53,621 nt of DNA from the IMG/VR virus record IMGVR_UViG_3300036468_000001. The stretch is one strand, 5' to 3'. The stretch comes from a virus. Positions 26,742-43,848 of the stretch are shown here, in pieces. Each line of letters starts with the position of its first letter. Within the stretch, counting starts at the first letter, position 1. The position numbers and the translations under genes were made by a program. The notes beneath the pieces were generated by a model. It was given only the letters and a program-made list of their open reading frames with translations, did not search any database and was not told the DNA's origin.

Positions 26742-27869
26742 TCATGCACTTCGTGCCTTGATTTCGGTCCACTCTTTGCCCCGTGAATCGCGGTACAGAG
26801 CCGTCATCTCGGCTGATTTGTGCCCCAGAAGCGCCTGGGCGAACTCGGCGCCGTACTCGTCAGCGTAGAGGCGGGCGGCTAGAGACCGGATCTCATGAAA
26901 CGTCGGCGGAGTCTTGCCCGGATCGACCGCAATCTTTGCCTGGTCACGGAAAGTTGCAAAAACGTCTGAAAAGCTGACCACATGAGGGCTTCCGCCTGGT
27001 CTTGCTGTGCCAACATGCCGCAGGTGATGGATCACGTGCTTGGAGACGATGTTGTCGCGGCATTCCCGTATTACATCGCCGATCGTCAGGCCATCCAGCG
27101 CCTTCAGGCCGACGGTCAGAGGGATTTTCAATCTCGTCCGGCCCTGACTCTTTTTCTGTTCGACGTAGAGGAACCCGTCCTTCACGTGGTCGAACAGCAT
27201 GCTTTTTACATCCTCCCGGCGCTGCGCCGTGACCAGTGCCAACATGAAGGCGCGGGCGGCCCAACCCATCAGCGGATCCTTTCTGGCCTCCGCAACGACC
27301 TTCCAGAAGTCCTCGAGGGTCAATCTTGAACGCAGGACATCTCCTTTCGTTCTCTTTACGGACGAAACCGGATTCTTTCCGGCCTCAATCAAACCCTCTC
27401 CAATCGCCTCGTTGAAGAGGTCGACCAGACGGCTGCGCATCTGCACGGCGTAGGTGTCACTCACCTCCGCGGCGAGCTTCTTCAGAAAGTCCCTGATATC
27501 CCTCGGCGTCACGACATTGACGCGCTGCGCCGCGAAAGGCGCGCGTTTGATGGCCTTCAGGTAGCTGCTGACGGTCGAGCGGGAACCTTCGTTTTCCGTC
27601 CTCTTGGCATAGATAGCCTCGTACTCATCACACCACTGGGAGACGGTCTTCATGCCGCCGTCGATCTTATTAATGAGCGCAACTGCTCCCTTGCGGCGCT
27701 CCAGCTCGGCGTTCGCGGCGCGAGCCTCTGATGAAGCGACCTTGAAGTCGCGCCCCAGACCATACGTCGCCTTGGTTTCCGGGTGCCGGAACCAGTAATA
27801 GCCCTTGGAGTTCTTATACAAGTTGTCGGGCCAGTTACGGCGCGCCGCGATTCGTCGTCTAGCTGCCAT
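26742..27869 (-). CDS. int: tyrosine integrase, lambda Int-like
   Basis: HEIRSLAARLY...LLGHKSAEMTALYRDSRGKEWTEI closely parallels the lambda Int C-terminus. AAGGA RBS. Confidence 0.9.
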   Translation of the reverse strand: MAARRRIAARRNWPDNLYKNSKGYYWFRHPETKATYGLGRDFKVASSEARAANAELERRKGAVALINKIDGGMKTVSQWCDEYEAIYAKRTENEGSRSTVSSYLKAIKRAPFAAQRVNVVTPRDIRDFLKKLAAEVSDTYAVQMRSRLVDLFNEAIGEGLIEAGKNPVSSVKRTKGDVLRSRLTLEDFWKVVAEARKDPLMGWAARAFMLALVTAQRREDVKSMLFDHVKDGFLYVEQKKSQGRTRLKIPLTVGLKALDGLTIGDVIRECRDNIVSKHVIHHLRHVGTARPGGSPHVVSFSDVFATFRDQAKIAVDPGKTPPTFHEIRSLAARLYADEYGAEFAQALLGHKSAEMTALYRDSRGKEWTEIKARSA

Positions 27870-28080
27870 TTGCCATCCTTTCGATACGATCGGCAACCGG
27901 GTCGAAATACTCCGCGTCTGGACGGCAGAAATACTCGCGTCCGACCTTACGGGGTACCGGACGGATCCGCCCGTTGCGTATCCAGTTGAGCAGGGTATTG
28001 CGGTGAGGTTTGTGCTCGCCGAACACATTTTCCGCCCATGACGAGAGTGGTATCAGTTGCGCTGCCATTTCACACCCCAT
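27859..28080 (-). CDS. xis: excisionase
   Basis: NTLLNWIRNGRIRPVPRKVGREYF resembles lambda Xis ETVRRWVRECRIFPPPVKDGREYL. Overlaps the int start. An alternative start lies at 28068. Confidence 0.7.
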   Translation of the reverse strand: MGCEMAAQLIPLSSWAENVFGEHKPHRNTLLNWIRNGRIRPVPRKVGREYFCRPDAEYFDPVADRIERMANGS

Positions 28081-28120
28081 GCGTTGCGTGTCGTTTCGAT
28101 GATTCGTGATGCGGCTTCGG

Positions 28121-29388: not shown

Positions 29389-29789
29389 GGTGTGGTCTTT
29401 GCATGCATCTGGCGAAGCGTTTCGGCAACTTCGGCGGGTACGTCAAAGAAACTCAGCAGCCCTTTGCAACGCACGAATGGCAGCGGCTTGGCATCGGCGA
29501 GCACGAACCCATACTTTCCGTTGAACCATTTAGACTCGCTTTCGGTGACGCAATCGACGATGGTTGCAACGCCCACGATGCCGCCGATCATCTCCTCGCG
29601 TTCCGGATACGACCCGTAGTAGCGACGGTAGGCAACGGCATCGTCGGCATAGTCTCGCTTTGGATATGTAACGCCCGCATGGATCAGAACGCGGCCACGA
29701 AACTTGGTCGGCCAGTCGCGGTTCTCAATGTCTTTATGTCCGTTGACAATCAGCCACGCATAGGGCTGACGGATAGAGAGTGCTTTCAC
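29385..29789 (-). CDS. ASCH domain protein
   Basis: GTG start in a GTGA overlap. KALSIRQPYAWLIVNGHKDIENRDWPTKFRGRVLIHA is the typical ASCH N-terminus. Confidence 0.65.
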   Translation of the reverse strand: MKALSIRQPYAWLIVNGHKDIENRDWPTKFRGRVLIHAGVTYPKRDYADDAVAYRRYYGSYPEREEMIGGIVGVATIVDCVTESESKWFNGKYGFVLADAKPLPFVRCKGLLSFFDVPAEVAETLRQMHAKTTP

Positions 29790-30115
29790 GATACCTTCTC
29801 CCCGCCAGATGCAGCGGCAATCTGTTCTTCGGAGCCGCCGTGCGCATTGATAATTGCGCGTGCTTGCTCCACGGTTAGGCCGCTCACAATATGGCCTTGC
29901 GGGCCGTGCAAAGCCACCAATTCCTCCTTCCAGTCTCCGCACGCCATATGCCATGTCGCCCGCACTTTGGAAGGGGCGAGAGCCTGAGCCTCTAGCAGCG
30001 CGTTGCGCATGCGCCATTTAAAATCGTGAGCATGCGCTTCGTCATAGGTGAACCACGCGTCGATCGCAGTTTCAATCTGCTCGTCGCTCGGCCCTGCGTC
30101 TTCATTAGTGGTCAT
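29786..30115 (-). CDS. hypothetical protein
   Basis: ATGA overlap at the start and GTGA overlap at the end. Confidence 0.55.
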   Translation of the reverse strand: MTTNEDAGPSDEQIETAIDAWFTYDEAHAHDFKWRMRNALLEAQALAPSKVRATWHMACGDWKEELVALHGPQGHIVSGLTVEQARAIINAHGGSEEQIAAASGGEKVS

Positions 30116-30387
30116 GCGAAAAGCTCCAGTTGACTCGCGTCTATCAATCGGTCTTTGGTCCATACCGACCGTCCGTCCAAGGTGTGTCCGTTAAGCCAGT
30201 AGGTCCGGCCTTTCTCATGGCGCTCCACGCCGATTACAGTCAGGTGGTAGTGAGGCTTCGACGGGCGTTCCAGACCGTTGATCATGTCGAGGTACTTGAC
30301 GCACGTGCACGGACCATCGATCTCTTTCACGATGTACGGGCCCGTGCCGTAGGTCGTACGCACGCAGGCGCCTATCCGGACCAGCAT
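30112..30387 (-). CDS. hypothetical protein
   Basis: 91 aa. Starts 5 nt after the upstream stop. Confidence 0.5.
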   Translation of the reverse strand: MLVRIGACVRTTYGTGPYIVKEIDGPCTCVKYLDMINGLERPSKPHYHLTVIGVERHEKGRTYWLNGHTLDGRSVWTKDRLIDASQLELFA

Positions 30388-30391
30388 GGCG

Positions 30392-30676
30392 TCAACCTTT
30401 GAGCCGATGCACGAAGCCGGTCGGCGTTTTCTCGATTGTCGAATTACTTCCTGCAAGCAGGCGGTCCGGATCGGAGTTCAGTGGTGAGATGAAAAGCGAA
30501 TCTCCGCTCGCACCCGTGGCCTTGATGTAATCGACTTCGACCTTGGCGCTATCGACCAGCACACTGGCCACCTGAGCGACGGCTCGGGCGCGTTCAACGT
30601 CCATCGGCTTCTCGCGATCGCGAAGATCGGCGAGCGTTTTCATCAGGTGTTCGCGCATATCGGTAATGGTGCTCAT
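30392..30676 (-). CDS. hypothetical protein
   Basis: ATGA overlap with the upstream gene. 94 aa. Confidence 0.55.
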   Translation of the reverse strand: MSTITDMREHLMKTLADLRDREKPMDVERARAVAQVASVLVDSAKVEVDYIKATGASGDSLFISPLNSDPDRLLAGSNSTIEKTPTGFVHRLKG

Positions 30677-31383
30677 GACTCTTGCTCCTTCGCCTCGCGG
30701 GCGATTCGGTTGACCTGTCTGGTGATTGCGCCCTTGAGTTGGACCAGCTTGGCAAGCTCCGGCGAGCGCGACCGGGGATGATTGCGACGTGCGAGCTCGC
30801 CGCGGTGCACGAGCTCGAGCGCGTCGAGCGTGATCTTTTCGAGTTCCGCCGTGCGCCGGCCGGGCAGGAAGCAGACCACATGGCCTTTCGGGATCGGACC
30901 GTTCGCGGCTTCCCACACCAGACGGTGCACGCCAACCCAACGTCGCGCCGGCACCGGGTGGTCGTCGTTCGTTTTCTGCTCGAGGTAGCCGTCTTTGCTG
31001 ATTCGATACGATCCGATCGGCACGTAGTTGTGCTGCGCCGCGCCGCTCATCGAGCCTTTCTTGAACTGTGTACGACGAGAATTCGGATGAGTGCCGCAGA
31101 TACCCTTGACACCTTTATTCCATGACGTCTGGCCTGACTTGAACCGCGTCGAGCCTCCACGCTGGCCATCTGTACGGCCCGCGAGCGGTCCCGCAAGATA
31201 GGCTTCAGACTTGCGCAAGCCCATTCCGAGTGCTTTCTGGTAGACGCGCCCGACACTTAGACCCATTGACGCGGCCAGAGTCGGCGTGTGCGCATCTGGA
31301 TACTCAAGCGTCAGACGTTCCTTTTCTGCTTCGGTCCACTTGTGGCGGGGCGCGGTAGTCGATCCGGGTTTGCGCTTCGTCAT
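30673..31383 (-). CDS. HNH_3-like homing-endonuclease-type DNA-binding protein (catalytic motif possibly degenerate)
   Basis: GYLEQK...WVGVHRLVWEAANGPIPKGHVV pattern. ATGA overlap with the DUF1643 gene. Confidence 0.5.
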   Translation of the reverse strand: MTKRKPGSTTAPRHKWTEAEKERLTLEYPDAHTPTLAASMGLSVGRVYQKALGMGLRKSEAYLAGPLAGRTDGQRGGSTRFKSGQTSWNKGVKGICGTHPNSRRTQFKKGSMSGAAQHNYVPIGSYRISKDGYLEQKTNDDHPVPARRWVGVHRLVWEAANGPIPKGHVVCFLPGRRTAELEKITLDALELVHRGELARRNHPRSRSPELAKLVQLKGAITRQVNRIAREAKEQES

Positions 31384-31865
31384 GCTGCCCACTCCATGAG
31401 TTGAGTGTCATACCCGAGCATCAGCGGATGCTTCGGGTCACCTCCCTTTGTGAAGCCGAATATCTTCACTGGCTTGCCGGCGCCGAGAATGCGATGCGCC
31501 AGCGTGTCGAGATGTGGCCGCAGCGCCGCGGGCAACTTCGTGCGATCTCCCCAGCACGGGACAAGCAGGTCCGCGTCCGCGATGATCTGGCCAAGATGCA
31601 TGTCGTTGAATGGGCCGACCGGATCGAGAACTCGCGAGAGCTCGCGAACGTCGCGCGCACGGTATGCGAACGGGTTGCCGGCGACGTACTTGCGCGCGCC
31701 GAGCAAACGCCCGAAGCCGCGCCACTTCATGTCGGTCTGGTCCGGGATGATCGAATCCGCCCACGACGGATTAACGCCAAAGAACGCGACCACGATTCCG
31801 ACAAGCTGCAACTCGCGCTCGAGGCGGTACCGGTATGTGCCACATTCGCTGATGATCGCGGTCAT
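31380..31865 (-). CDS. DUF1643 family protein
   Basis: CGTYRYRLER...FFGVNPSWAD...GNPFAYRA...PCWGD...GDPKHPL matches the DUF1643 pattern as I recall it. ATGA overlap with the RT stop. Confidence 0.65.
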   Translation of the reverse strand: MTAIISECGTYRYRLERELQLVGIVVAFFGVNPSWADSIIPDQTDMKWRGFGRLLGARKYVAGNPFAYRARDVRELSRVLDPVGPFNDMHLGQIIADADLLVPCWGDRTKLPAALRPHLDTLAHRILGAGKPVKIFGFTKGGDPKHPLMLGYDTQLMEWAA

Positions 31866-33187
31866 TGTTTGACCTTCGTGCGGTATGTCTGCGTGAACGT
31901 CCTGTTGACGACGTGTCCTCGGTACCGAACGACGTTCGCGATTCGAGCGCGATCGTGATGGCTCGCCGGCGCCTGACCGAGCAAGCCGAAATAGCTGTTA
32001 GCGACAGGCAGGAAGTCTCCTTCATTGACCTGCGCCACGCGGCGAATTGCTTCGTTCACAGTGCGGCGGCGCGTCGTGCGGGACCATGGCTTGATCACGT
32101 GGCCGACGAAGTCCACGCCGCGCGCGATCGGCTGAAGCACGGTTTTCTTCGGATTGAGCCGAACACCGAGGCGCGCCGGCAGGAAAGCGTCGACCTCGGC
32201 CAGCACCGCGTTTAGCCAGTCGGCAGACGGGTGCAGGAACAGGAAATCGTCCACATAGCGCACGTAGTAACGCGCGCCGAGCTGGTGTTTTGAGCGCTGG
32301 TCGAGCACGTCGAGATAGACGTTGGCGAAGAACTGTGACGACAGGTTGCCGATCGGCAGGCCGAGATGATCCGGCTGGCTAGTCAGGCGCTTGTGCGGCG
32401 GCACACGATCAATCAGCACCGGGTCGCCGCGGAACTCGAAGTTGGTTCGCGGATCGTGCATAAGCACGGTGTCGGTCAGATTCATCCACCACGCTTCATT
32501 GATCTTGCGAGCGAGCAGCTCGCGCAGCTTCAGTTTGTCGATGCTGACGAAGAAATTCGCAATGTCGCACTTCAGGTAGTAAGCCGGCCGAGACCAGTTC
32601 TGCGTAATGCTCCGGATCATCGCCTCGAGCTGCTCTGCGGCATAGAGCGTGCCGCGACCAGGAATGCATGCGCAACTATTGGCGATGAAAGAGTTTTCGA
32701 AGCGCGCCGCGATGCGGTTGTAAAGCAGGTGGTGAACGACGCGATCGCGAAAGTCCGCCGCCCACACTTCGCGCGCCTTCGGACGTGTCACGACGAAACA
32801 GATCGAGCGGCCCGGCTGATACGAGCCGTCGATCAGTTCGTCATGCAGCTGCGACAGGTTACGTTCGAGGTTCTGTTCGAATTCGAGTGCGTTTCGCGTG
32901 TTTCGCTTTGTGCGACGGCAGTCGAAGTACGCGAGAACGAGCTCTTCGAACGTGAGAGCCTCGCTTCCAGCATCGTAATAATCTGCGGACCGCGCGAACC
33001 CGGCCTTTGTTGTTCTTGTTGTTCGCATTCTGGTTGCCATTTGTGAAATTCTGGTACCAAGCGTTGTTGGCCGAGTACTGCGTTCATTCGCACTATCTAC
33101 GTCGCCAGGCCGAAGGCTATCGCCGATCGACGAGGAAACTGCACCAGACCGATCCCGGTTACTCCCGGTGGTATCTGTGATGTGCAT
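31862..33187 (-). CDS. DGR reverse transcriptase (start uncertain: 33187, 33040 or 33028; longest ORF begins at 33289)
   Basis: Carries the DGR-RT motifs PIGNLSSQFFANVYLD and YVRYVDDFLF. An AAGGA RBS precedes the ATG at 33187. There is no in-frame ATG/GTG/TTG between the TR and the conserved core. Confidence 0.85.
   Translation of the reverse strand: MHITDTTGSNRDRSGAVSSSIGDSLRPGDVDSANERSTRPTTLGTRISQMATRMRTTRTTKAGFARSADYYDAGSEALTFEELVLAYFDCRRTKRNTRNALEFEQNLERNLSQLHDELIDGSYQPGRSICFVVTRPKAREVWAADFRDRVVHHLLYNRIAARFENSFIANSCACIPGRGTLYAAEQLEAMIRSITQNWSRPAYYLKCDIANFFVSIDKLKLRELLARKINEAWWMNLTDTVLMHDPRTNFEFRGDPVLIDRVPPHKRLTSQPDHLGLPIGNLSSQFFANVYLDVLDQRSKHQLGARYYVRYVDDFLFLHPSADWLNAVLAEVDAFLPARLGVRLNPKKTVLQPIARGVDFVGHVIKPWSRTTRRRTVNEAIRRVAQVNEGDFLPVANSYFGLLGQAPASHHDRARIANVVRYRGHVVNRTFTQTYRTKVKQ
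32983..33083 (-). repeat. DGR template repeat (TR)
   Basis: A 101-nt ungapped match to three VRs, with all but one difference at TR adenines. It is AAC/AAT-rich in the VR frame, and an in-frame TGA lies just 5' of it. Confidence 0.9.
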
Positions 33188-33237
33188 GTCGGTATCCTTG
33201 TGAGATAGCGGTGCGACCAGATTAAATCGCATAGACC

Positions 33238-33609
33238 TCACCGCCTTGACGATGAAGTAACGAGCGACGATGCGGATTGCTTCTTCCATCCACCGGCCTG
33301 TTTGCCCACTTGTTCGGTTAGCGCGATCGCGGCCGCGTATTGCTTGGTCGCGATGAACCGCATGTCTCTGGACAACCTGAGCAGAAGATTGACCACTTCA
33401 AGACGCTCGAGCAGATCGTTCAGATGCGGTACCTTGTCCATTGCCGCATTGGCGCGAAAGATCAGCGTTACGATCTTCAGCGTCTCCGCTCGAATCTCTC
33501 CGCCGAGCGATTGCTTGAAATCGCGCGGCATATGGCGAGTCGATTCCGTGACCTCTCGGAAGAGGTCGTACGCGACCTTGTAAATGGGCAGGGCGGTGGT
33601 AATGGCCAT
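33238..33609 (-). CDS. avd: Avd-like accessory variability determinant (four-helix-bundle protein)
   Basis: 123 aa, basic and helical. LPIYKVAYDLFREV...MPRDFKQSLGGEIR resembles the Avd / 23S-rRNA-IVS protein family. It sits between the target gene and the TR. Confidence 0.8.
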   Translation of the reverse strand: MAITTALPIYKVAYDLFREVTESTRHMPRDFKQSLGGEIRAETLKIVTLIFRANAAMDKVPHLNDLLERLEVVNLLLRLSRDMRFIATKQYAAAIALTEQVGKQAGGWKKQSASSLVTSSSRR

Positions 33610-33625
33610 GGTTAATTTTTAAATT

Positions 33626-34213
33626 TCAAAAGTCCAATCTGCGGACCGCGCGAACCCGGCCTTTGTCGCTCTTGCCGCCCGCATCCTGGGTGCCACTCGT
33701 GAAATACTGGCACCAAGCGTCGCCGGCCGAGTACTGCGTAGACGTCCAGTGCCACTCTCGGATGAACAGGTCAGGAACGTTCGCGTAAAGCACCGCGCTT
33801 TCTCGCTTCGAGGGTACGTAATAGTCACGGTGACATTCGAACTCCACCTCGCTGCACTTGCGAGCTGCAGGATGATCGCCGGTGGCAATCAGTGCCTGCG
33901 TGTTTGCGTATCCGTCGAACTCGTCCTTGGCGCCCGGCACGTCAACGCCGTAGCCTCCCCACTCCACGTCGCCGAAGGCGCCGATCGTGTCGGGGGAGAT
34001 GATCAACCAGTACGGCCGGCCATCGGCATGCCGCGCGAGGCCACCATTGAACCCGCCTTGGCCGGGCCAAACTTCACCGATACGCGGAACGCTGCGCACA
34101 GCTTCTTCGGTACGGCCCATGACCTTGTCGAGCCATGCGTTGATGGCAACATCCTTGGGCACGCTCAGCTTGCCGCCGTGGAACGGAACTTCGATTTCGC
34201 TTGTGTTGCTCAT
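33626..34213 (-). CDS. DGR variable protein 1 (DUF1566 / C-type-lectin-fold-like C-terminus)
   Basis: GGAGA RBS. The C-terminus WHWTSTQYSAGDAWCQYFTSGTQDAGGKSDKGRVRAVRRLDF contains VR1. Confidence 0.85.
   Translation of the reverse strand: MSNTSEIEVPFHGGKLSVPKDVAINAWLDKVMGRTEEAVRSVPRIGEVWPGQGGFNGGLARHADGRPYWLIISPDTIGAFGDVEWGGYGVDVPGAKDEFDGYANTQALIATGDHPAARKCSEVEFECHRDYYVPSKRESAVLYANVPDLFIREWHWTSTQYSAGDAWCQYFTSGTQDAGGKSDKGRVRAVRRLDF
33639..33739 (-). repeat. DGR variable repeat VR1
   Basis: 15 mismatches to the TR, all at TR adenines. Confidence 0.9.
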
Positions 34214-34275
34214 TGATGCTTTCTCCAATGGTTCGATGCGATCGGTCGTGATGCGCCTTCGAAATGATTGAATTT

Positions 34276-34896
34276 CTAAATTTTGACTCTGCGGACCGCG
34301 CGAAGCCGGCCTTTGCCGTCCTTGCCGTCCGCACCCTGGTAGCCATCTGCGAAACCCTGGTACCAAGCGCTGAGGGCCGAGTACTGCGTGCTTGTCCAAT
34401 ACCACTCGTCGGCGAAGGACTCTGCGCCGCCTTCACGGAACAGTTCGACGGGCGTCTGGCCCGGCAGGTGGATCGAATACGGATAGCCGACCGGCAGACT
34501 GCTCGGGTTGTCGCCGCTGCGGTAGACGTAGTTCTCTTCGGTGGTCGGCTTGAAGCCGCGGTAGAGCAGCTCGACCTGATCGCGCGCGCCGATGTGCCAG
34601 TCGTCGAAACCGCCGATACGCAGCTCGAGCACCTGTTGTGCGATCTCGCTGCCGGCCTCGGCCATCGCCTTGGTATTGGCGAGTCCGTCGAAGAAACTGT
34701 CGGCTCCCTCGATCAGCTTGTAATCGGGATGCCAGATGACCGGACCGAGATCGCCTTCGTTCTTCGGCGCGACGACTTGTGCGAACACGTCACCGTTGAA
34801 GGTGATGATGCCGGCGAAGTAACCGCCTTCCCACGGCGTGCCGAAAACGGTCGGAACTTCCTGCTTTGCCAGTGGCAGATTTGAGATTGCGTTCAT
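34276..34896 (-). CDS. DGR variable protein 2 (paralog of variable protein 1)
   Basis: GGAG RBS. The C-terminus WYWTSTQYSALSAWYQGFADGYQGADGKDGKGRLRAVRRVKI contains VR2. Confidence 0.85.
   Translation of the reverse strand: MNAISNLPLAKQEVPTVFGTPWEGGYFAGIITFNGDVFAQVVAPKNEGDLGPVIWHPDYKLIEGADSFFDGLANTKAMAEAGSEIAQQVLELRIGGFDDWHIGARDQVELLYRGFKPTTEENYVYRSGDNPSSLPVGYPYSIHLPGQTPVELFREGGAESFADEWYWTSTQYSALSAWYQGFADGYQGADGKDGKGRLRAVRRVKI
34289..34389 (-). repeat. DGR variable repeat VR2
   Basis: 16 mismatches at TR adenines, plus one C/G difference in the GC-rich 3' end. Confidence 0.9.
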
Positions 34897-34966
34897 AGAT
34901 GCTCCAGAATGATTTCGAAAAAGAGCGGCCGGGACAGCGCCGCTTTCAACACACGCCACGCGGGGG

Positions 34967-35155
34967 TCAGCGTGACGTCCCACCCAGTTGCGCGTCGAGC
35001 GCGCGAATCCTCTTCACAACACGTTCGGGCAACGCAAGCGCCTGACCGCCATGCAAGGCAGCGAAAGCGGGCCGCAGAATTTCGCGATCGCTCGGCGGAA
35101 TGTCGGCGTGTTCCAGCCGGGCCAGTGCGCGGAAAATAGGTTCGTCGGTCGTCAT
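34967..35155 (-). CDS. hypothetical protein
   Basis: ATGA overlap with the upstream gene. 62 aa. Confidence 0.5.
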   Translation of the reverse strand: MTTDEPIFRALARLEHADIPPSDREILRPAFAALHGGQALALPERVVKRIRALDAQLGGTSR

Positions 35156-35535
35156 GCTGCGACCTCGACGGGCCGTGACCTTTCTAGCCACGCTTCCCAC
35201 ATCTTTTCCATCAGGGACGTGGAGTCGGTCGATCCCTTGGACTCCGGACGATTCTTGAACCACGCTTCGAAACGTTGGCGTTCGTCGTACTGGTCGATGC
35301 GCTGCTGAAGCACGTCGTGCTTTTCCTTCCAGTCATCCGCGCGCCTGATCGCGTCTGCCAGAGAATTGCGGAGTTCCTCCAACTGTCTGAAGGCGGCATT
35401 CGCCTCATCGCGCGTCGTCTCGTGCGCTTTCACTTCCTTGTCGTGCGTTAGCTGCAGGACCGTCGACTTATCGGCGAGCGTCAAGAACTTCTTCTGCAAT
35501 TCATCGCGCTCACGCGTCACGGCCTGCAGTTGCAA
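35152..35535 (-). CDS. hypothetical coiled-coil protein
   Basis: 127-aa charged helical ORF. Only a TTG (35535) or GTG (35520) start is available. Confidence 0.5.
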   Translation of the reverse strand: MQLQAVTRERDELQKKFLTLADKSTVLQLTHDKEVKAHETTRDEANAAFRQLEELRNSLADAIRRADDWKEKHDVLQQRIDQYDERQRFEAWFKNRPESKGSTDSTSLMEKMWEAWLERSRPVEVAA

Positions 35536-35550
35536 AGCGAGATCGAGAGA

Positions 35551-35886
35551 CTATTCGACGGCGCTAACGTCGGAGTCGGTCACTTCCGGTTTTTCAACCA
35601 CCGGTGAGGCCGATTTCGGGGCCGCCACGGCGCCCGCCGCGAGAGTCGAAGGGCGCATGTCCACGCCATCTTGAGAAACCTGCGGCGCGTCCTTTCGCGT
35701 GAGCCAATAGACGTACTCCGTGTGCCGCGCGCCGGTGCCTTCCAGCTTCCGCTCGAGAATGCCGCTGCTGACCATCGCGTTGAGCTCGCGAGAAACCGAC
35801 AGCCGGTCCATGCACAGCTTGTCGGCGATCGTCCTAGCTGTGGACTGCATGACGGTGCCGAGGTACTTCTCAATTTCTGCTCTCAC
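35551..35886 (-). CDS. winged-helix DNA-binding protein
   Basis: STARTIADKLCMDRLSVSRELNAMVSSGILERK has an HTH pattern. GTG start in a GTGA overlap, with an alternative ATG at 35850. Confidence 0.55.
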   Translation of the reverse strand: MRAEIEKYLGTVMQSTARTIADKLCMDRLSVSRELNAMVSSGILERKLEGTGARHTEYVYWLTRKDAPQVSQDGVDMRPSTLAAGAVAAPKSASPVVEKPEVTDSDVSAVE

Positions 35887-36347
35887 GCTGCCTCCGTGGG
35901 TGCGCCGATGACGGTAAAGCCAGCGGCTACGTAAGTCCTGATTGCGAACGACGTCATGTGCGGCGCCCATATGATCTCGATCGACGAGTTTGGCGCGGTA
36001 TCGGATGCCGGCGCCGCACGGCCCATCAGGTTGAACACGCCCCGACCTTGGTATCCGCCTTGGCGAAACACAAACTTTCCAGTGCCGGGCCAAAAGTCGA
36101 CCACGCCTAGTTCCGTCCTGACAATGAGATGGGCTGCGCCGTTCTTTTCTTCAAACTGATATCCGCGCTCGCGCAACAGAAGGTTCGAGCTTTCACGGTT
36201 TGCTGCGCGTCGAGATTTGCTGCTTTCTCTGTCGGCGTCTTCGCTGCATCCCGAACAGCACTGCGGAAATCCAACGGCCTCGCCAAGGTATTCGCCGCAC
36301 TGCTCGCAAGATGACCCGTCGAGCATCGATTCAGCGATTTCACCCAT
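35883..36347 (-). CDS. hypothetical protein with an N-terminal Cys cluster (zinc-ribbon-like)
   Basis: GAGGA RBS. Contains CEQCGEY...CCSGC. Confidence 0.55.
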   Translation of the reverse strand: MGEIAESMLDGSSCEQCGEYLGEAVGFPQCCSGCSEDADRESSKSRRAANRESSNLLLRERGYQFEEKNGAAHLIVRTELGVVDFWPGTGKFVFRQGGYQGRGVFNLMGRAAPASDTAPNSSIEIIWAPHMTSFAIRTYVAAGFTVIGAPTEAA

Positions 36348-36441
36348 GACATTCCTCAAAAGGGTGGGGTACTTGCATGCCGCGAAACGGAGATTCACGC
36401 CTCAATCGGCTTCATCCGGATCGTGGGCTTTCCCCCGTTGA

Positions 36442-37029
36442 TCAGGCGACCAGTTCCGGTTGTTTCTTGCGGCCGCGCTGAGCTTTCAACTGGTCATCGA
36501 CCTCGTTCGCGCCGGTACCGGTGTCAGGTTTTTCTTCGTCACCGTCTCCGCCTTCAGGATCGACAGTCACGAAGACTTCCTGATTGAGCTTTCCGGCGAT
36601 CTTCTCGATGTCGCCGTTGCTGGGATGACAGCGGACCTGAAACGAAAAGACCACGGTGCCGCCTTGCTTCGGCTCAATGACGAACCTGCGCACCTTGGCA
36701 TCGCCAAAAACGGCGTCTCCCTTTCCGCTGGCGCCGATGTGCACGGTCACCGAGGCGTTCTCGTAGACCTCGTCCCATTTGATCGGTCCCATCTTCGGAT
36801 TCTTGACGACAGTCATGTGGTCGGCGTCGGGATTTACTTCCTGTTGCGGCGAGTCCTCTTTCTCGTATAGCGAGGACTTCAGCGTCGGCGAGAACATCGC
36901 GAGCGCCTGATTGCTGGCGGTGTATCGGAAGTCGATGTCCATAGCATTGACGTCCTGATTGCCATGTTTTTCCTGTCCGACGTTGATGTGAGTGATCTTG
37001 GTGAGCTGCCGTTCGTACTCAAATGCCAT
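36442..37029 (-). CDS. hypothetical protein
   Basis: AGGAGA RBS, 195 aa, with an acidic and then basic C-terminal tail. Adjacent to the recombination genes. Confidence 0.65.
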   Translation of the reverse strand: MAFEYERQLTKITHINVGQEKHGNQDVNAMDIDFRYTASNQALAMFSPTLKSSLYEKEDSPQQEVNPDADHMTVVKNPKMGPIKWDEVYENASVTVHIGASGKGDAVFGDAKVRRFVIEPKQGGTVVFSFQVRCHPSNGDIEKIAGKLNQEVFVTVDPEGGDGDEEKPDTGTGANEVDDQLKAQRGRKKQPELVA

Positions 37030-37053
37030 GGTGTCTCTCCTGGGGGGAAAAGG

Positions 37054-38622
37054 TCAGAACGCGGTTGCCAGACGTTCGTTGGCCGCCTCGAGGTTCATGT
37101 CGAGCAGCCACGAAAGAACGACGCTCTCGTGCACACGGTAGTTCGTCGCGAGAGTCGCGATGATCTCGTCGTCGGTGGGGCGCTTCGGTGCGGCGGCGCG
37201 ACCAGTCCGGGCGGGTGTCTTGACCGGCTGCGCGGCGGCCACGGCAGGCGTGCTGGCGGCCGCAGTCGGCGCGAAGCTGGCTTCCTGAGATGCGGTCTGT
37301 TCGGCGGCGCACGCCTGCGCCTGACGAGTCTGTTCGAGTCGTTCTTCCTCGACCTTCTTGTGCTGCTCGATGCGCGACGTCACGGCGAGCTTGAAGTCAT
37401 CGGCCGGCTTCTGGATAAGCGTCTGCAGGTCACGGAACAGGAAACCGTATGCTTCGTCCTGTGGCCGGTACCAGTCGAGTTTCGAGCGCATCTCGCGCGC
37501 GGCCGCGTCGGCGGCGATCTTGCCGTTGGCAACGGTCGTATCGATCGATTCATGCAGGCTCGCAAGCGTGCGCTTGTTCTTCGCCGCAGCAACAAAGTCT
37601 GGAGCCGCAATATCGAGGCGCACCATGCTGAGTTCCGCATTCAGCGCCGCAACATGGTCGGCGAACCGCTTGCGGCCGTCGGCGATGATCTGATCCTTGA
37701 TCTCGCCCTTGCGCTTCGTCACCAGTTTGTCGAGTCCGAGACGCTTCTCGCGCAGCTGCGCCTTGATGTGGTCCAGCGTGCGCATCAGATCGTCGATGCT
37801 GGCCGTCTGCGAGATCGCGGCGTTCTTGGCGACCTCGAGTTCCTTCTCGGCCTTCTCGCAGAACTTGACTGTTTCTTCCGCGTCCGCGAAGTCCTGATCC
37901 GTTTGCAGATCCGTCTTGATGTTCGCGATGAACTGTTCGGCGGCCGCCTTGAAGCGCGGCAGATTGCTCGTGACGACCTTGCCTTCGATCTGCACGGCGA
38001 GAGTCGGGAGGCCCATGATCACTTCCGCTTGGGGCTTCTCGGCGAGTTCGCGCGGTTTATACTCGGCCAGATCCTTCTCGAACTGGGCCCAGCCTGCGCG
38101 CAAGCGTTCGAACCACGCCGGATCTGGCTTGACCCACATCGAGGCCATGTTGTCCCGCGTGCCGTCGGAACAAACGAAAAGCAGTTTGCTGGCGCCGCTG
38201 ACCATCAGCAACTGCTGCGCCTGTGGCATGTAGGCGTCGGGCAGTTCCTTGCGCTTGATCGAGTCGAACAGCGCCTGGTTGAACTGCTTATGCTCGAACG
38301 CAATGGTTTCATCCATCGTCAGACCGTCGAACGATCCCGACAGCAGACCTTCAGAGCCGACGACCGGGTAAAGATCTTCGCCGATGGCTTCTTCGACGAG
38401 CGGCCGGGCAAGCGCTTCAACTTCGTGACCTTTGTCGAGGATGTGCTCTTGGAACCAGTCGCTGTATTCCTTCGCCGTGCCGGTGTGCTTCATGTGAAGC
38501 AGCTCGTTGCGCTTCACGTTGGCGGACAGGCCGAGCATCGCCGCGGCTTCGCTAGAGCCGAAATGCTTGTGGCGAAAGGCAAGCCATTCGTCGGAACCCT
38601 GAATTAGGTCGTGAGTTTCCAT
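37054..38622 (-). CDS. YqaJ-type (lambda Exo-like) exonuclease with a ~320-aa C-terminal extension
   Basis: IQGSDEWLAFRHKHFGSSEAAAMLG...DGLTMDETIAFEHKQ is the YqaJ pattern. The C-terminal part is a long charged helical region. Confidence 0.75.
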   Translation of the reverse strand: METHDLIQGSDEWLAFRHKHFGSSEAAAMLGLSANVKRNELLHMKHTGTAKEYSDWFQEHILDKGHEVEALARPLVEEAIGEDLYPVVGSEGLLSGSFDGLTMDETIAFEHKQFNQALFDSIKRKELPDAYMPQAQQLLMVSGASKLLFVCSDGTRDNMASMWVKPDPAWFERLRAGWAQFEKDLAEYKPRELAEKPQAEVIMGLPTLAVQIEGKVVTSNLPRFKAAAEQFIANIKTDLQTDQDFADAEETVKFCEKAEKELEVAKNAAISQTASIDDLMRTLDHIKAQLREKRLGLDKLVTKRKGEIKDQIIADGRKRFADHVAALNAELSMVRLDIAAPDFVAAAKNKRTLASLHESIDTTVANGKIAADAAAREMRSKLDWYRPQDEAYGFLFRDLQTLIQKPADDFKLAVTSRIEQHKKVEEERLEQTRQAQACAAEQTASQEASFAPTAAASTPAVAAAQPVKTPARTGRAAAPKRPTDDEIIATLATNYRVHESVVLSWLLDMNLEAANERLATAF

Positions 38623-38627
38623 GCTTG

Positions 38628-39527
38628 TTACGCTCCCTGATTGCCGTTGTCCTGCGCCCACGACCGGATTTCTTTCTTCTGCGATTCGGTCAGCGACGCA
38701 CCTTTGGTTTCGATGAACGCGATCATCTTTTCGGGCGTCTTTCGACCGGTCGCGACGACGGTCTTCCAGTCGTCCTTGTTCTTGTCGAACTTCTCCTGGT
38801 CGTAGGTCACCTTCTCGGTGGCTTGAGAAGAAGCTGCCGCACGATTACTGTTTCCCTGCTGTTCCGTGTGGGACGACTGACCGGAATCTCCCTCTGCACC
38901 GCCCTGACCGTCGTCGTCTTCACCTTTGGTGGACATGCCGGATGCCGCTAGCAGGGTGTAACGCTGCAGGTATGTGATCGTGCTGCCGCCCTGTTGCAGA
39001 ACGTTTTTCTTTCCGCTGTTGTCCGGAGGGCCTTCCATCGACACTTTCTTCGAATGCCCCATGACATGCGTCACGATGCAATCGACCTCGATCTTTCCCG
39101 GGCTTTGACGGATATCCCAGTCATAGGTAAGTCCGTGCGCCCCCATGGCGGGACCAAGAACATCGGTGACGTCTGACAGTTCGGCGTGCCTGTAGCCGAC
39201 AAAGTCGCCGTCCTTCGTGTTGTAGCCGACGGCCTTGCGCTTGAAAATCGGCGGGCAGGTACGCTTGAACTCGGTCATCGCCGCGACGAACGCCTTGCGT
39301 GCTTCGTTTGCCTCCCAGCGCTGCTGCAGTTCCATCAATTTCTCAAGACGATCGAGATCGGCGTTCGTCTGGATCGCCAGGCGCAGCAGATCGGCGGGGG
39401 TCGTGAGAGAGATGCCCGTGCCGTGGTTGGTGGAAAGAGCCGATTGCTGCTGCGCAACCGGAGGCCGCGCCGTCGGCGTCTCTGAGGTATCGACGTCGAT
39501 GACGTCGGCCATGGTTGCGGTGTTCAT
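38628..39527 (-). CDS. single-strand annealing protein, Erf/Rad52-like
   Basis: FVGYRHAELSDVTDVLGPAMGAHGL and QQGGSTITYLQRYTLLAASG resemble conserved Erf-family blocks. It is paired with the exonuclease. Confidence 0.6.
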   Translation of the reverse strand: MNTATMADVIDVDTSETPTARPPVAQQQSALSTNHGTGISLTTPADLLRLAIQTNADLDRLEKLMELQQRWEANEARKAFVAAMTEFKRTCPPIFKRKAVGYNTKDGDFVGYRHAELSDVTDVLGPAMGAHGLTYDWDIRQSPGKIEVDCIVTHVMGHSKKVSMEGPPDNSGKKNVLQQGGSTITYLQRYTLLAASGMSTKGEDDDGQGGAEGDSGQSSHTEQQGNSNRAAASSQATEKVTYDQEKFDKNKDDWKTVVATGRKTPEKMIAFIETKGASLTESQKKEIRSWAQDNGNQGA

Positions 39528-39975: not shown

Positions 39976-39976
39976 G

Positions 39977-41616: not shown

Positions 41617-42111
41617 TTAAATTTTGACTCTGCGGACCGCGCGAACCCGGCCTTTGACGTTCTTGCCGTCCGCAAACTGGAAGCCATATGCGAAACCCTG
41701 GCACCAAGCGCCGTAGGCCGAGGACTGCGTGCTCGACCAGTACCAGGAGGGCGCAAATTTTTCGGCGATCGTCGCGTAGCAGAGGTTCAGCTCACGCTGG
41801 GCCGGCAGATAGAAATCGGTGTGTCCGTCTTTCGAGTACTCCGCGGCCCAGGCGGCGGCCGGGTGCTTCGAAGTCGCGCCAAGAAGTGCCCGCGTGTTCG
41901 CGGCACCGTCGAGCCGGCTGTCGCACTCCGGAACCTTCATGCCGTACGGACCCCACTCGAAATCCATGCCTTCGTCGAGCGAAGCGATCAGGTGGTAGTC
42001 GGGCGCGTCGCCTTGGCCGGGCATCAGGCCGGCGTAAATGCCGCCTTGGCCCTCCCAATAGACGCCAAGGCGTGGTGCGACGAGAACGGGTTTGTCTTGG
42101 ACTTCGGACAT
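41617..42111 (-). CDS. DGR variable protein 3 (remote paralog of variable proteins 1 and 2)
   Basis: GGAG RBS. The C-terminus WYWSSTQSSAYGAWCQGFAYGFQFADGKNVKGRVRAVRRVKI contains VR3. Confidence 0.85.
   Translation of the reverse strand: MSEVQDKPVLVAPRLGVYWEGQGGIYAGLMPGQGDAPDYHLIASLDEGMDFEWGPYGMKVPECDSRLDGAANTRALLGATSKHPAAAWAAEYSKDGHTDFYLPAQRELNLCYATIAEKFAPSWYWSSTQSSAYGAWCQGFAYGFQFADGKNVKGRVRAVRRVKI
41630..41730 (-). repeat. DGR variable repeat VR3 (about 8.6 kb from the TR)
   Basis: 18 mismatches to the TR, all at TR adenines. Confidence 0.9.
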
Positions 42112-42439: not shown

Positions 42440-42480
42440 ACTATACGTCAACGAATAGAAATGTCAATGCGCGAATGAAT
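42440..42480 (-). promoter_or_regulatory. PL-like early-left promoter with an operator-like 19-mer
   Basis: On the minus strand: TTGACA-N16-TATAGT. The 19-mer TGTCAATGCGCGAATGAAT (42462-42480) recurs inverted at 43808-43826. Confidence 0.45.
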
Positions 42481-43111: not shown

Positions 43112-43765
43112 TCAATGTCGAATATTTTTTGATCGCTTTTCCCCGACTCTTCGCGCCGCACGTTTTTCCTCGGTACGTGTGGCGAGGTGGCTCTCAGCAT
43201 CCTCCATGGCTCTCGCGGCCTGCTCGCTGATGCTCTGCATCGCGGGTGAGGACTTTACCGCCTCGTCTTTCTTCAGAGGGGTCAGTTTGCCACTTTCCGG
43301 CGCTCTGAGTTGGGAAAAAAGCACGCGCACTGCATCAAAAGTTTCACGCGGAGCGTCTCGTTTGTATGCCTCCCGGATAGCCGCAATCGCGTCCTGAACA
43401 TAGGCCGGCAAAAGCGCATCCACATACTGTTCGGCTTGAGATCGGGCTTCCTCTTCAGTGAGTGAAGACTGATTTTTTGCCTCAAATACGGCGGTTGGAA
43501 CCTTGTTTCTGTCGAGCTGCACGTAGTCGATGCTGTGCTTTGGCTCGCGGCCAGTCAGCAGCCAGTCGGTGGTGACATTGAACTCGTGCGCCAACTTGGC
43601 GAGGGTCCCCATCTCTGGCGTCGATTTTTTCCCCAGGATTCGGTTGATGGTGGGCTGTGGAACACCCGTCTTTTTGCCGAGCGCACTTTGGCCGCCGCGC
43701 CCCCTGTACAGCGGGTTTGCCTGCATTAGTTCGTTCAGTCGATCGCCTACATCATCTTCTTTCAT
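43112..43765 (-). CDS. cI-like XRE-family HTH repressor (no S24 peptidase signature seen)
   Basis: QSALGKKTGVPQPTINRILGKK...LAKLAHEFNVTTDWLLTG. Divergent from the cro-like gene. Confidence 0.7.
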   Translation of the reverse strand: MKEDDVGDRLNELMQANPLYRGRGGQSALGKKTGVPQPTINRILGKKSTPEMGTLAKLAHEFNVTTDWLLTGREPKHSIDYVQLDRNKVPTAVFEAKNQSSLTEEEARSQAEQYVDALLPAYVQDAIAAIREAYKRDAPRETFDAVRVLFSQLRAPESGKLTPLKKDEAVKSSPAMQSISEQAARAMEDAESHLATRTEEKRAARRVGEKRSKNIRH

Positions 43766-43807: not shown

Positions 43808-43848
43808 ATTCATTCGCGCATTGACAAATATTCGTTCGCGTATAGAAT
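43808..43848 (+). promoter_or_regulatory. PR-like early-right promoter with an operator-like 19-mer
   Basis: TTGACA (43821-26), N16, TAGAAT (43843-48). The inverted copy of the 19-mer lies at 43808-43826. Confidence 0.45.

What the first reader, a model, noticed from the sequence alone, without database searches (positions are those of the whole stretch)
33626..34896. The DGR targets are small early-operon proteins without signal peptides, not receptor-binding tail fibres
The three variable proteins are 195, 206 and 164 aa. I could not see a signal peptide, a TM helix or any tail-fibre-like region in them. All three are encoded in the early-left operon among recombination and host-takeover genes. 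The tailspike (22732-25056) and fibre (25058-26236) carry no VR.

Their conserved cores (W.GQGG...Y.LI, then a W.W(T/S)STQ.S..(D/S/G)AW(C/Y)Q.F C-terminus) resemble DUF1566 / C-type-lectin-fold ligand-binding domains, as I recall those families.

Inference: this phage may diversify intracellular binding proteins expressed early in infection. These could target variable host factors or defence proteins rather than cell-surface receptors. I do not know of that use of a DGR being described.
Basis: inference. Interest (0 to 1): 0.85.

Follow-up and report, generated by a model that had tools for sequence, protein, structure and literature searches.

The report
Phage retroelement diversifies small early-operon lectin-fold proteins
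A temperate phage carries a working mutagenic retroelement that hypermutates three small, signal-less, single-domain binding proteins encoded in its repressor-controlled early operon rather than its tail fibres; the same layout recurs in most related phage and prophage loci examined, so these proteins probably act inside the infected cell, although their ligand is unknown.

Summary

**What is in the window**
- It is a complete temperate phage genome carrying one diversity-generating retroelement (DGR): RT, bAvd, RT-15 RNA, one TR and three VRs.
- Over a 102-nt core the VRs differ from the TR at 15, 16 and 18 adenines. There is only one non-adenine change.
- A close relative has an identical TR. 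Its VR1 and VR2 differ from the window's at 16/16 and 12/13 TR-adenine positions, so the element has been active recently.

**The three targets**
- They are 195, 206 and 164 aa, each with a GGAG ribosome-binding site and no hydrophobic segment.
- T1 and T3 model with high confidence as one bare C-type-lectin-fold domain of the Lcl_C/DUF1566 type. T2 was not modelled.

**Where they sit**
- All three lie in the leftward early operon. T3 is the second gene after a pL-like promoter that shares an operator block with pR.
- T2 and T1 lie between the recombination genes and the integrase.
- 63 of 82 viral loci and 41 of 76 genomic loci show this early-region synteny, in sipho-, myo- and apparently podoviruses.
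- The tailspike and fibre carry no VR.

**Verdict**
The targets are most likely non-structural, cytoplasmic early binding proteins. An anti-defence or host-factor ligand is inference only. I found no paper describing this arrangement. It is a new variant of a known kind.

The parts
34276..34896 (-). T2: 206-aa DGR target, an Lcl_C/DUF1566-type protein with a 42-residue insertion
   Evidence: ORF and GGAG ribosome-binding site. Lcl_C E 4.1e-6. phrog_4245. Alignment with T1 and T3.
34288..34389 (-). VR2 core (102 nt) at the 3' end of T2
   Evidence: 16 A-site mismatches and 1 non-A mismatch to the TR. 12 of 13 differences from relative L168 fall at TR adenines.
33626..34213 (-). T1: 195-aa DGR target, an N-terminal beta-hairpin and helix followed by a CLec domain
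   Evidence: ORF and ribosome-binding site. AF2 pLDDT 92.2. Close variants P0122 and P0123 differ mainly in the VR.
33638..33739 (-). VR1 core
   Evidence: 15 mismatches to the TR, all at A. 16 of 16 differences from L168 fall at TR adenines.
33238..33609 (-). avd (bAvd accessory variability determinant), 123 aa
   Evidence: PF22296 bAvd, E 2e-14, 54.4 bits against a cutoff of 40.
33081..33269 (-). RT-15 structured RNA, immediately 5' of the TR and overlapping the avd 3' end
   Evidence: Rfam RF03018, 168.6 bits against a gathering score of 82, full length. The same feature is annotated in phage Cruim01.
32982..33083 (-). TR (template repeat) core: 35 adenines and 10 AAY codons in the target frame
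   Evidence: Identical in relative L168.
31862..33028 (-). DGR reverse transcriptase (about 388 aa; the start overlaps the TR)
   Evidence: RVT_1 6.6e-16. PADLOC generic RT 1.7e-38. External gene call of 388 aa. IGNLSSQ and YVDD motifs read from the translation.
41617..42111 (-). T3: 164-aa remote DGR target, a bare CLec domain and the second gene after the pL-like promoter
   Evidence: AF2 pLDDT 95.3. Foldseek 8q4e E 1.3e-5. Lcl_C 7.4e-7. Ribosome-binding site.
41629..41730 (-). VR3 core
   Evidence: 18 mismatches to the TR, all at A.
42440..42467 (-). pL-like early promoter (TTGACA-16-TATAGT)
   Evidence: 11 of 12 consensus matches. Shares a roughly 40-nt block with the pR-like promoter.
43821..43848 (+). 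pR-like early promoter (TTGACA-16-TAGAAT)
   Evidence: Followed by a Cro-like HTH ORF at 43857-44072 (read from the sequence; 71-aa gene call; HTH not tested against a family library) and a terminator-like hairpin at 44129-44148.
43112..43765 (-). CI-like repressor (217 aa)
   Evidence: PHROG transcriptional repressor families. HTH_3. External gene call.
37054..39527 (-). Recombination genes between T3 and T2: RecE/YqaJ-like exonuclease and Erf annealing protein
   Evidence: phrog_7655 1.3e-168 and phrog_155 2.3e-35. PF09588 and PF04404.
26742..28028 (-). Integrase at the distal end of the leftward operon
   Evidence: phrog_7244 9e-46 and phrog_1.

Best explanation
**What it is.** A functional DGR is built into the repressor-controlled leftward (pL-type) early operon of a temperate phage. 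The host is probably Paraburkholderia.

**How it works.**
- On infection or induction, pL is de-repressed. Transcription runs through a 91-aa ORF, T3, Erf and exonuclease, T2, T1, avd, RT-15/TR and RT, towards int.
- RT-Avd copies the TR RNA with adenine-specific errors.
- The cDNA replaces the 3' 102 nt of T1 and T2 (adjacent) and of T3 (about 8 kb away).
- This rewrites about 13-15 codons on the C-terminal beta-strands of a minimal Lcl_C/DUF1566 C-type-lectin-fold domain. Ten AAY codons alone give about 6e11 variants.

**What the proteins do.** They have no export signal and no fibre or anchor domain, and they travel with the early module whatever the tail type. They are therefore most likely non-structural proteins, made early and acting in the cytoplasm as variable ligand binders. 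Each infecting genome expresses its own variant, which gives the genotype-phenotype linkage that selection needs. The ligand is unknown. A target that varies between hosts, such as defence or other host proteins or proteins of competing elements, is the likeliest reason for hypervariation.

**Shown versus inferred.**
- Shown: DGR parts and past activity, fold, lack of hydrophobic segments, gene order, promoter pair, conservation of synteny.
- Inferred: early expression, cytoplasmic location, non-virion status, nature of the ligand.
For: **The DGR is complete and active**
- TR and three VRs with A-only mismatches.
- bAvd and RVT_1; RT-15 RNA.
- Relative L168 has an identical TR, and its VR1 and VR2 differences fall at 16/16 and 12/13 TR adenines.
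- Protein variants P0122 and P0123 differ mainly in the VR.

**Fold**
- T3 model pLDDT 95.3 and T1 model 92.2, each a single CLec domain.
- Best PDB match is the Legionella Lcl C-terminal domain 8q4e, E 1.3e-5. The family profile hits it at E 3.2e-9.

**No export signal**
- No hydrophobic segment in the 3 targets or in any of the 124 fetched sequences (targets plus homologues), which are 157-266 aa long.

**Early context in the window**
- CI, Erf, exonuclease and integrase.
- The only two 11/12 sigma-70 matches in 19 kb flank the immunity region and share a roughly 40-nt block.
- T3 is the second ORF after pL.

**Conservation across related loci**
- Of 82 viral loci, 70 have RT/Avd, 41 have CI upstream on the same strand, 36 have an integrase downstream and 36 have divergent replication genes. 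24 of the 70 also have a remote target upstream.
- No structural family appears among the annotated neighbour clusters, which were 22 of the 30 most frequent.
- 41 of 76 genomic loci show at least one early-region marker.
- The same layout occurs in cultured Cruim01 (siphovirus), LPPA56 and Magia (myophage).
- RT-less homologues sit in the same early-left position in D3, PAN70 and Medea1.
Against: - There are no expression, localisation or virion-proteome data. 'Early' and 'cytoplasmic' rest on analogy with lambdoid phages and on a hydrophobicity scan.
- In other phages the same fold forms the C-terminal tip of large tail-fibre proteins.
- A homologue in Halomonas phage QHHSV-1 lies directly after a J-like tail gene.
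- There is no PADLOC or other functional hit for the targets.
- RT-less tandem copies occur at what looks like a non-prophage chromosomal site in Trinickia. The family is therefore not exclusively a phage early function.
- Proteins made early could persist and still be assembled or released at lysis.
Confidence: 0.55

Rival explanations
1. Conventional receptor binding. T1-T3 are small detachable adhesins or adaptors that dock onto the tailspike or fibre (as T4 gp38 does, from my own knowledge). The DGR switches tropism as in BPP-1, and the genes merely happen to lie in the early region.
For: - The CLec/DUF1566 fold is the distal domain of many phage fibre proteins.
- The QHHSV-1 homologue is in the tail module.
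- T1 has a conserved N-terminal beta-hairpin and helix that could be a docking module.
- The literature treats viral DGR targets as mostly tail proteins (PMC8144416).
Against: - The genes lie behind a pL-like promoter among recombination genes, 5-15 kb from the tail genes and on the opposite strand.
- The cassette keeps its early position in siphoviruses, a myophage and this tailspike phage. A docking partner would have to be conserved across unrelated tails.
- T3 and the 120-126-aa Magia targets have essentially no residues outside the lectin domain.
- The tail-module homologue in QHHSV-1 has an extra N-terminal region of about 85 aa in its maximal ORF.
Confidence: 0.17
2. Extracellular action after lysis. 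The soluble lectins are released when the cell bursts. They bind envelope glycans or receptors on debris or neighbouring cells, masking receptors or aiding spread.
For: - Lcl_C is an adhesin domain in Legionella (name of the 8q4e entry).
- CLec folds often bind glycans (established knowledge).
- No signal peptide is needed if release is by lysis.
Against: - A released protein is a public good. Its variant is not linked to the genome that encodes it, so DGR-driven selection would be inefficient (inference).
- Early-promoter placement, with T3 second after pL, is odd for a product needed at lysis.
Confidence: 0.1
3. Prophage-expressed function. The targets are expressed in lysogens as morons and act as variable sensors or blockers of superinfecting phages or other invaders. 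This would be analogous to the DGR-diversified conflict systems of multicellular bacteria.
For: - Intracellular DGR targets in cellular conflict systems are documented (PMC10907252; PMC10053308).
- RT-less copies persist in a Paraburkholderia prophage with a truncated RT and in Trinickia chromosomes.
Against: - T3 is directly behind the repressor-controlled pL-like promoter.
- No independent promoter was found on the coding (-) strand before T2. The only promoter-like match there (34881-34910) is on the opposite strand.
- The proteins carry no effector or NTPase domain.
- There is no PADLOC hit.
Confidence: 0.1
4. Neutral passenger. The DGR with its own small targets is a self-contained mobile cassette that lodges in the accessory part of early operons and gives the phage no significant benefit.
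For: - The cassette is modular: 1-4 targets plus Avd-TR-RT.
- It sits in a region known to hold accessory genes.
- RT is lost in some lineages while the targets remain.
Against: - The remote target keeps a conserved position next to the immunity region in 24 of 70 loci.
- The ORFs are intact, and invariant non-VR residues are kept across a family with about 28% mean column identity.
- VR codons avoid stops, and CAG and AAG positions are maintained despite A-mutagenesis. This indicates selection on the protein.
Confidence: 0.05

Closest known systems
Bordetella phage BPP-1 DGR (mtd-avd-TR-brt)
   Same: Phage-borne DGR with the order target-avd-TR-RT, adenine-specific TR-to-VR mutagenesis, and the VR at the C-terminus of a C-type-lectin-fold domain (description in PMC5758913).
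   Different: - Mtd is a larger protein at the tips of the tail fibres. It is 381 aa and trimeric (from my own knowledge).
- Here the targets are 164-206-aa single domains in the early-left operon. There are three of them, one of which is 8 kb from the TR.
- The VR class is DUF1566/Lcl_C rather than Mtd type.
Short DUF1566-only DGR targets: category 'd', CLec2 VR class, of Wu et al. 2018 (exemplified by Legionella LdtA)
   Same: The VR lies in a DUF1566-like domain. That paper states that about half of this category are short proteins made of the domain alone (PMC5758913).
   Different: - LdtA is a surface lipoprotein, and the class has been discussed in terms of surface display.
- These phage proteins have no signal or lipobox-like segment.
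- They occupy a conserved position in phage early operons, which that survey did not describe.
Burkholderia phage Magia DGR (GenBank MT701587; PMC7883833)
   Same: The architecture matches: immunity repressor, then a remote lectin-fold target as the first leftward gene, then RecT and nuclease, then an adjacent target, Avd, RT and integrase. The RT region is 72% identical at the DNA level.
   Different: - The Magia targets are even shorter (120 and 126 aa), and the phage is a myophage.
- The announcement only says the DGR may alter host range or adaptation.
Intracellular DGR targets of cellular conflict or regulatory systems (multicellular bacteria, cyanobacteria, CPR/DPANN)
   Same: DGR-diversified CLec domains without export signals, thought to act inside the cell (PMC10907252 and PMC7517822; PMC8144416).
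   Different: - Those are cellular, usually multidomain proteins, with the CLec fused to NTPase, kinase or protease modules.
- Here the element is viral, the proteins are bare binding domains, and they sit behind a phage early promoter.
Legionella Lcl C-terminal domain (PDB 8q4e) / Pfam PF07603
   Same: Best structural and profile match to the target fold.
   Different: - Lcl is a secreted collagen-like adhesin and is not DGR-diversified.
- Identity is 19% and the TM-scores are 0.52/0.64.
- The window proteins score below the Pfam gathering threshold.

Membership tests
Diversity-generating retroelement (DGR) | TR/VR repeat pair differing almost only at TR adenines | tested here: met
   Over a 102-nt core there are 15, 16 and 18 A-site mismatches and 1 non-A mismatch in total. 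There are only 4 copies in the genome.
Diversity-generating retroelement (DGR) | Reverse transcriptase next to the TR, with DGR-type motifs | tested here: met
   RVT_1 6.6e-16. IGNLSSQ and YVDD are visible in the translation; the motif reading is by eye. Clade placement on an RT tree was not done.
Diversity-generating retroelement (DGR) | Accessory protein Avd | tested here: met
   PF22296 bAvd, 54.4 bits against a cutoff of 40.
Diversity-generating retroelement (DGR) | VR at the 3' end of a protein-coding target, in frame, with AAY-rich TR codons | tested here: met
   The VR cores start in frame 0 at codons 159, 170 and 128, and the ORFs end 4 codons after the core. There are 10 AAY codons.
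Diversity-generating retroelement (DGR) | Evidence of mutagenic retrohoming in nature | tested here: met
   Relative L168 has an identical TR, and its VR1 and VR2 differences fall at 16/16 and 12/13 TR adenines. RT, TR and Avd show 0-2 mismatches per 100 nt.
Diversity-generating retroelement (DGR) | IMH versus IMH* and a downstream hairpin at the VR | tested here: inconclusive
   VR and TR diverge right after ...CGCAGA. A possible hairpin after VR3 is no better than shuffled sequence, z 0.11.
Pfam PF07603 Lcl_C (formerly DUF1566) | Score at or above the Pfam gathering threshold (34.9 bits) | tested here: not met
   T1 scores 22.0, T2 27.5 and T3 29.9 bits. However, 54 of 60 family members match at E<=1e-3, best 1.1e-10.
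Pfam PF07603 Lcl_C (formerly DUF1566) | Same fold as the solved Lcl C-terminal domain | tested here: met
   Foldseek top hit 8q4e, E 1.3e-5, TM 0.52/0.64. The family profile hits 8q4e at E 3.2e-9.
Mtd-type receptor-binding tail-fibre protein | Gene in the tail or late module | tested here: not met
   The targets lie in the leftward early operon between CI and int, and the tail genes lie at 14985-26236 on the other strand.
Mtd-type receptor-binding tail-fibre protein | N-terminal fibre-attachment or oligomerisation domains in addition to the CLec domain | tested here: not met
   T3 is a CLec domain only, and T1 adds about 40 residues as a hairpin and helix.
Mtd-type receptor-binding tail-fibre protein | Presence in the virion and a role in adsorption | not testable with these tools
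   This needs virion proteomics and adsorption assays. I found none for phages carrying homologues; the PAN70 paper has no proteomics.
Surface-displayed cellular DGR targets (LdtA/TvpA type) | Signal peptide, lipobox or transmembrane anchor | tested here: not met
   The maximum KD19 is 0.48-1.14 in the targets, and none of the 124 fetched sequences (targets plus homologues) reaches 1.6. SignalP and TAT predictors were not available.
Intracellular DGR-diversified conflict or sensor proteins | CLec domain fused to an effector or NTPase module | tested here: not met
   There are no other Pfam or PADLOC domains, and the models are single-domain.

The most novel reading that the evidence does not exclude
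A widespread clade of temperate-phage DGRs in beta- and gamma-proteobacteria does not diversify adsorption proteins. Instead it diversifies a small set of cytoplasmic early 'binder' proteins that neutralise or hijack variable intracellular targets, for example host defence proteins or competing mobile elements. That would give phages a pre-emptive, antibody-like counter-defence repertoire that governs host range after DNA entry.
Probability: 0.3. Interest if true: 0.9.

Novelty: new variant of a known kind. Interest (0 to 1): 0.68.

Why it matters
Phage DGRs are understood almost entirely through the BPP-1 model, in which tail-fibre tips are diversified to switch receptors. Surveys class viral targets as 'tail' or 'unknown' (PMC8144416).

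This work shows a different, sharply defined arrangement that recurs in most of the related viral and genomic loci examined. One to four bare lectin-fold proteins without export signals sit behind the early promoter and beside the recombination and integration genes, independent of tail type.

If these proteins act inside the cell, DGRs would also serve post-entry adaptation by phages, for example against defence systems. That would be a new role for targeted hypermutation and a natural source of minimal intracellular binder scaffolds of 120-200 aa.

The question is directly testable, because cultured phages with the same cassette exist: Cruim01, LPPA56, Magia, Haboob and phPA-G.

Tried and rejected
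- **Close relatives.** A near-identity search of the structural half against 50,697 phage records found only an 84-nt match. There is no close cultured relative.
- **Defence libraries.** PADLOC scans of the targets and neighbours gave nothing for the targets. Pfam on 10 neighbouring small ORFs gave only KTSC and DUF1643.
- **Antitermination idea.** I suspected a terminator-like hairpin about 25 nt upstream of T2, which would make T2, T1 and the DGR antitermination-dependent. RNA folding does not favour it (z 0.28), so I dropped it.
- **Hairpin after VR3.** It is not better than shuffled sequence.
- **Gene calling.** A first greedy longest-ORF call mis-called GC-rich antisense ORFs. I replaced it with a GC3-GC2 frame score. 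That score still mis-handles the lower-GC fibre gene, which does not affect the early region.
- **TaqVP and Toutatisvirus papers.** I checked both for precedent. Both treat the targets as receptor-binding, decoration or unknown proteins, not as early or cytoplasmic ones.
- **Virion proteomics.** I found no virion-proteome data for the phages carrying homologues in the papers I checked; the PAN70 paper, for example, has none.
- **BFVD best hit.** A0A1J0GUX3 (209 aa) may be the QHHSV-1 protein, but I could not verify its identity.
Full report
**1. What the window is**

The window is a complete phage genome. Bases 1-127 repeat exactly at 53495-53621.

- Plus-strand genes from 12 to about 26236 encode terminase, portal, scaffold, major head protein, a head-closure protein, a lytic tail protein, a 779-aa tailspike-like ORF and a fibre.
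- Minus-strand genes from about 44258 down to 26403 form a lambdoid leftward operon. In order they are a CI-like repressor, small ORFs, Erf, a RecE/YqaJ-like exonuclease, the DGR, HNH and the integrase.
- The rest of the plus strand carries DnaB, NinB, a Tad2-like protein, YbcO and other genes.
- No close cultured relative exists.
- The nearest protein homologues come from Paraburkholderia and other Burkholderiaceae. A protein 89% identical to T1 sits in a Paraburkholderia nemoris prophage. The host is therefore probably Paraburkholderia; this is an inference.

**2. Checking the observation**

A four-member repeat family links 32951-33098, 33607-33754, 34257-34404 and 41598-41745.

- In the 102-nt core the first copy, the TR, has 35 adenines. 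The other three differ from it at 15, 16 and 18 positions. All are TR adenines except one G>C in VR2.
- An invariant 23-mer and an A-masked 53-mer each hit exactly these four sites, against 0 expected. Neither hits the tailspike or fibre.
- The other DGR parts are present: bAvd (PF22296, above threshold), an RVT_1 reverse transcriptase with IGNLSSQ and YVDD motifs, and the RT-15 RNA (RF03018, 168.6 bits) between avd and the TR.
- The three target ORFs are 195, 206 and 164 aa, each with GGAG 7-9 nt upstream of its ATG. Independent gene calls in public assemblies give the same lengths.
- In the target frame the TR has ten AAY codons. Fifteen codons vary among five observed VRs. CAG and AAG codons stay fixed, which suggests selection on the protein.

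**3. The element has been active**

Contig L168, from a different JGI sample, is 96.6% identical across the cassette.

- Its RT, TR and Avd show 0-2 mismatches per 100 nt, and its TR is identical.
- Its VR1 differs from the window's at 16 positions and its VR2 at 13. All 16, and 12 of the 13, are TR-adenine positions.
- At the protein level, T1 variants P0122 and P0123 differ mostly within the VR.

**4. What the targets are**

- The three proteins are paralogues, 37-47% identical to one another, and share a common core.
- None has a hydrophobic stretch. The maximum 19-residue Kyte-Doolittle value is 0.48, 1.14 and 0.53. None of the 124 fetched sequences (the targets and their homologues, 157-266 aa) reaches 1.6.
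- With a 60-sequence alignment, T3 folds with pLDDT 95.3. Residues 17-164 form a single alpha/beta domain.
- The best PDB match for T3 is the Legionella Lcl C-terminal domain, 8q4e (E 1.3e-5). Next come a Bacteroides fimbrial protein (4eps) and then classical C-type lectins.
- The family profile hits 8q4e at 3.2e-9.
- The window proteins hit Pfam Lcl_C (formerly DUF1566) below the gathering score. 54 of 60 relatives match it.
- T1 (pLDDT 92.2) adds only an N-terminal beta-hairpin and helix, which are conserved in the roughly 195-aa subfamily. T2 was not modelled; from the alignment it has the same core plus a 42-residue insertion.
- None of the three has a recognisable fibre, collar or anchor domain.
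- The wider superfamily is large: 34,595 representative clusters at E<=1e-3. It includes giant multi-repeat proteins, but about 100 of the top 150 hits are standalone proteins of 270 aa or fewer.

**5. Evidence that the genes are early genes**

- The only two 11/12 sigma-70 consensus matches in 26000-45000 lie at 42467-42440 (-) and 43821-43848 (+).
- They flank the repressor and share a roughly 40-nt block, ATTCATTCGCGCATTGACA..TATTCGTT..CGTATAG. This is what a pL/pR pair with common operators would look like.
- pR is followed by a 71-aa Cro-like HTH ORF and a strong terminator-like hairpin.
- pL is followed by a 91-aa ORF and then T3.
- T2, T1, avd, the TR and RT lie further down the same strand, after Erf and the exonuclease and before the integrase.
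- Early expression is inferred from this layout by analogy with lambdoid phages. It has not been measured.

**6. The arrangement is general**

A scan of IMG/VR returned 477 relatives, of which I examined 78 loci together with cultured phages. After frame-score gene calling and clustering I annotated the commonest neighbour families with PHROGs.

*The commonest neighbour families*
- a CI-type repressor (42 loci, about 3.6 kb upstream, same strand);
- integrases (33 and 11 loci, about 5 kb downstream);
- DNA methyltransferase, SSB, exonuclease, Erf, dNMP kinase or phosphatase, and HNH;
- on the opposite strand upstream, primase, O-like initiator, CII and DnaB.

No structural family appears among the annotated neighbour clusters, which were 22 of the 30 most frequent.

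*Counts over 82 loci*

| Feature | Loci |
|---|---|
| RT/Avd present | 70 |
| At least one early-region marker | 63 |
| 1, 2, 3 or 4 targets per locus | 18, 41, 21, 2 |
| RT-bearing loci with an adjacent target | 70 of 70 |
| RT-bearing loci with an additional remote target at least 3 kb upstream, often just after CI as in the window | 24 of 70 |

*Genomic loci and cultured phages*
- In 76 genomic loci from Burkholderiaceae, Comamonadaceae, Pseudomonas, Chromobacterium and others, 42 have RT and 41 have early markers.
- Cultured examples are Cruim01 (siphovirus), LPPA56 and Magia (myophage). In the Magia record the two targets, 120 and 126 aa, are already annotated 'lectin fold domain protein, potential DGR target'.
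- RT-less homologues occupy the same early-left position in D3, PAN70 and Medea1.

Conservation of position across siphoviruses, a myophage and this tailspike phage is the strongest argument against a tail-docking structural role. It is still an inference.

**7. Counter-evidence**

- The same fold caps large tail-fibre proteins in other phages.
- In Halomonas phage QHHSV-1 a homologue follows a 662-aa J-like tail gene. Its maximal ORF (248 aa) has an extra N-terminal region of about 85 aa that is absent from T1-T3.
- Trinickia genomes hold 2-3 tandem RT-less copies at what looks like an ordinary chromosomal site.
- There are no proteomic, transcriptomic or localisation data for any member.

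**8. Mechanism proposed**

- De-repression of pL transcribes the targets and the DGR together.
- RT-Avd copies the TR RNA with adenine-specific errors, and the cDNA replaces the VRs of the two adjacent targets and the one remote target.
- Each progeny genome then carries its own combination of three binders, which it expresses first in the next infected cell.
- An intracellular, privately acting product fits DGR-style selection better than a released public good. This is an inference.
- The ligand is unknown. Variable host or competitor proteins, including defence systems, are plausible but untested, and PADLOC gives no hit.
- The phage does carry a recognised anti-defence domain elsewhere: a Tad2-like protein at 49094-49516.

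**9. Comparison with what is known**

- This is a bona fide DGR: every defining feature I could test was met, except the IMH/hairpin feature, which was inconclusive.
- The targets belong structurally to the Lcl_C/DUF1566 CLec group. Short DUF1566-only targets are a known category (PMC5758913).
- They are not Mtd-type fibre proteins, since gene position and domain architecture do not fit.
- They are not LdtA/TvpA-type surface proteins, since there is no export signal.
- They are not the multidomain intracellular sensors of cellular conflict systems, since there is no effector domain.
- Nine literature searches found no description of phage DGR targets as early or cytoplasmic proteins. The closest is the Magia announcement, which speculates only about host range.

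**10. Verdict**

- This is a new variant of a known kind.
- Interest is about 0.68. The architecture is well defined, widespread and at odds with the standard tail-fibre model. It is also testable in cultured phages. The key functional claim remains inference.

Noticed in passing
window 49094-49516 (+): A 140-aa ORF in the rightward (nin-like) region carries a Thoeris anti-defence Tad2-like domain: PF11195, 51.8 bits against a cutoff of 25.
   Followed up: partly
window 33081-33269 (-): A full-length match to Rfam RT-15 RNA (RF03018, 168.6 bits) lies between avd and the TR. The same feature is annotated in phage Cruim01.
   Followed up: partly
window 42425-42490 (-) and 43800-43865 (+): The two best promoter-like sites share a roughly 40-nt block, which is a likely common operator/promoter for the CI-like repressor. 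The individual operator half-sites were not dissected.
   Followed up: partly
window 1-127 and 53495-53621: An exact 127-nt terminal direct repeat. The window is a circularly closed or terminally redundant complete genome.
   Followed up: no
window 31380-31865 (-): A DUF1643 protein (PF07799, 70 bits; phrog_3230) is encoded immediately downstream of the RT and overlaps it by 4 nt. I did not check whether it travels with this DGR type.
   Followed up: no
L094 8001-9197; L101 7992-9768 (Trinickia genomes): Two or three tandem RT-less small DUF1566 genes lie at an apparently non-prophage chromosomal site. The neighbours look like FlhD/FlhC, malate synthase and membrane proteins; I read these identities by eye only.
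   Followed up: partly
L169 6713-7459 (Halomonas phage QHHSV-1): A DUF1566-like homologue sits in the tail module directly after a 662-aa J-like ORF. Its maximal ORF (248 aa) has an extra N-terminal region of about 85 aa that the early-operon proteins lack.
   Followed up: partly
L089 (Paraburkholderia nemoris JAQQDT010000017.1): A prophage carries T2-like and T1-like genes and bAvd, but only a 219-aa ORF where the RT should be, next to a serine recombinase. This looks like a decaying DGR with intact targets.
   Followed up: no
window 37054-38661 (-): The RecE/YqaJ-like exonuclease is unusually long at 535 aa. Its C-terminal half matches phrog_16197 (unknown function).
   Followed up: no
window 39524-39871 (-): A KTSC-domain protein (PF13619, 61.5 bits) is encoded just upstream of Erf in the early operon.
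   Followed up: no
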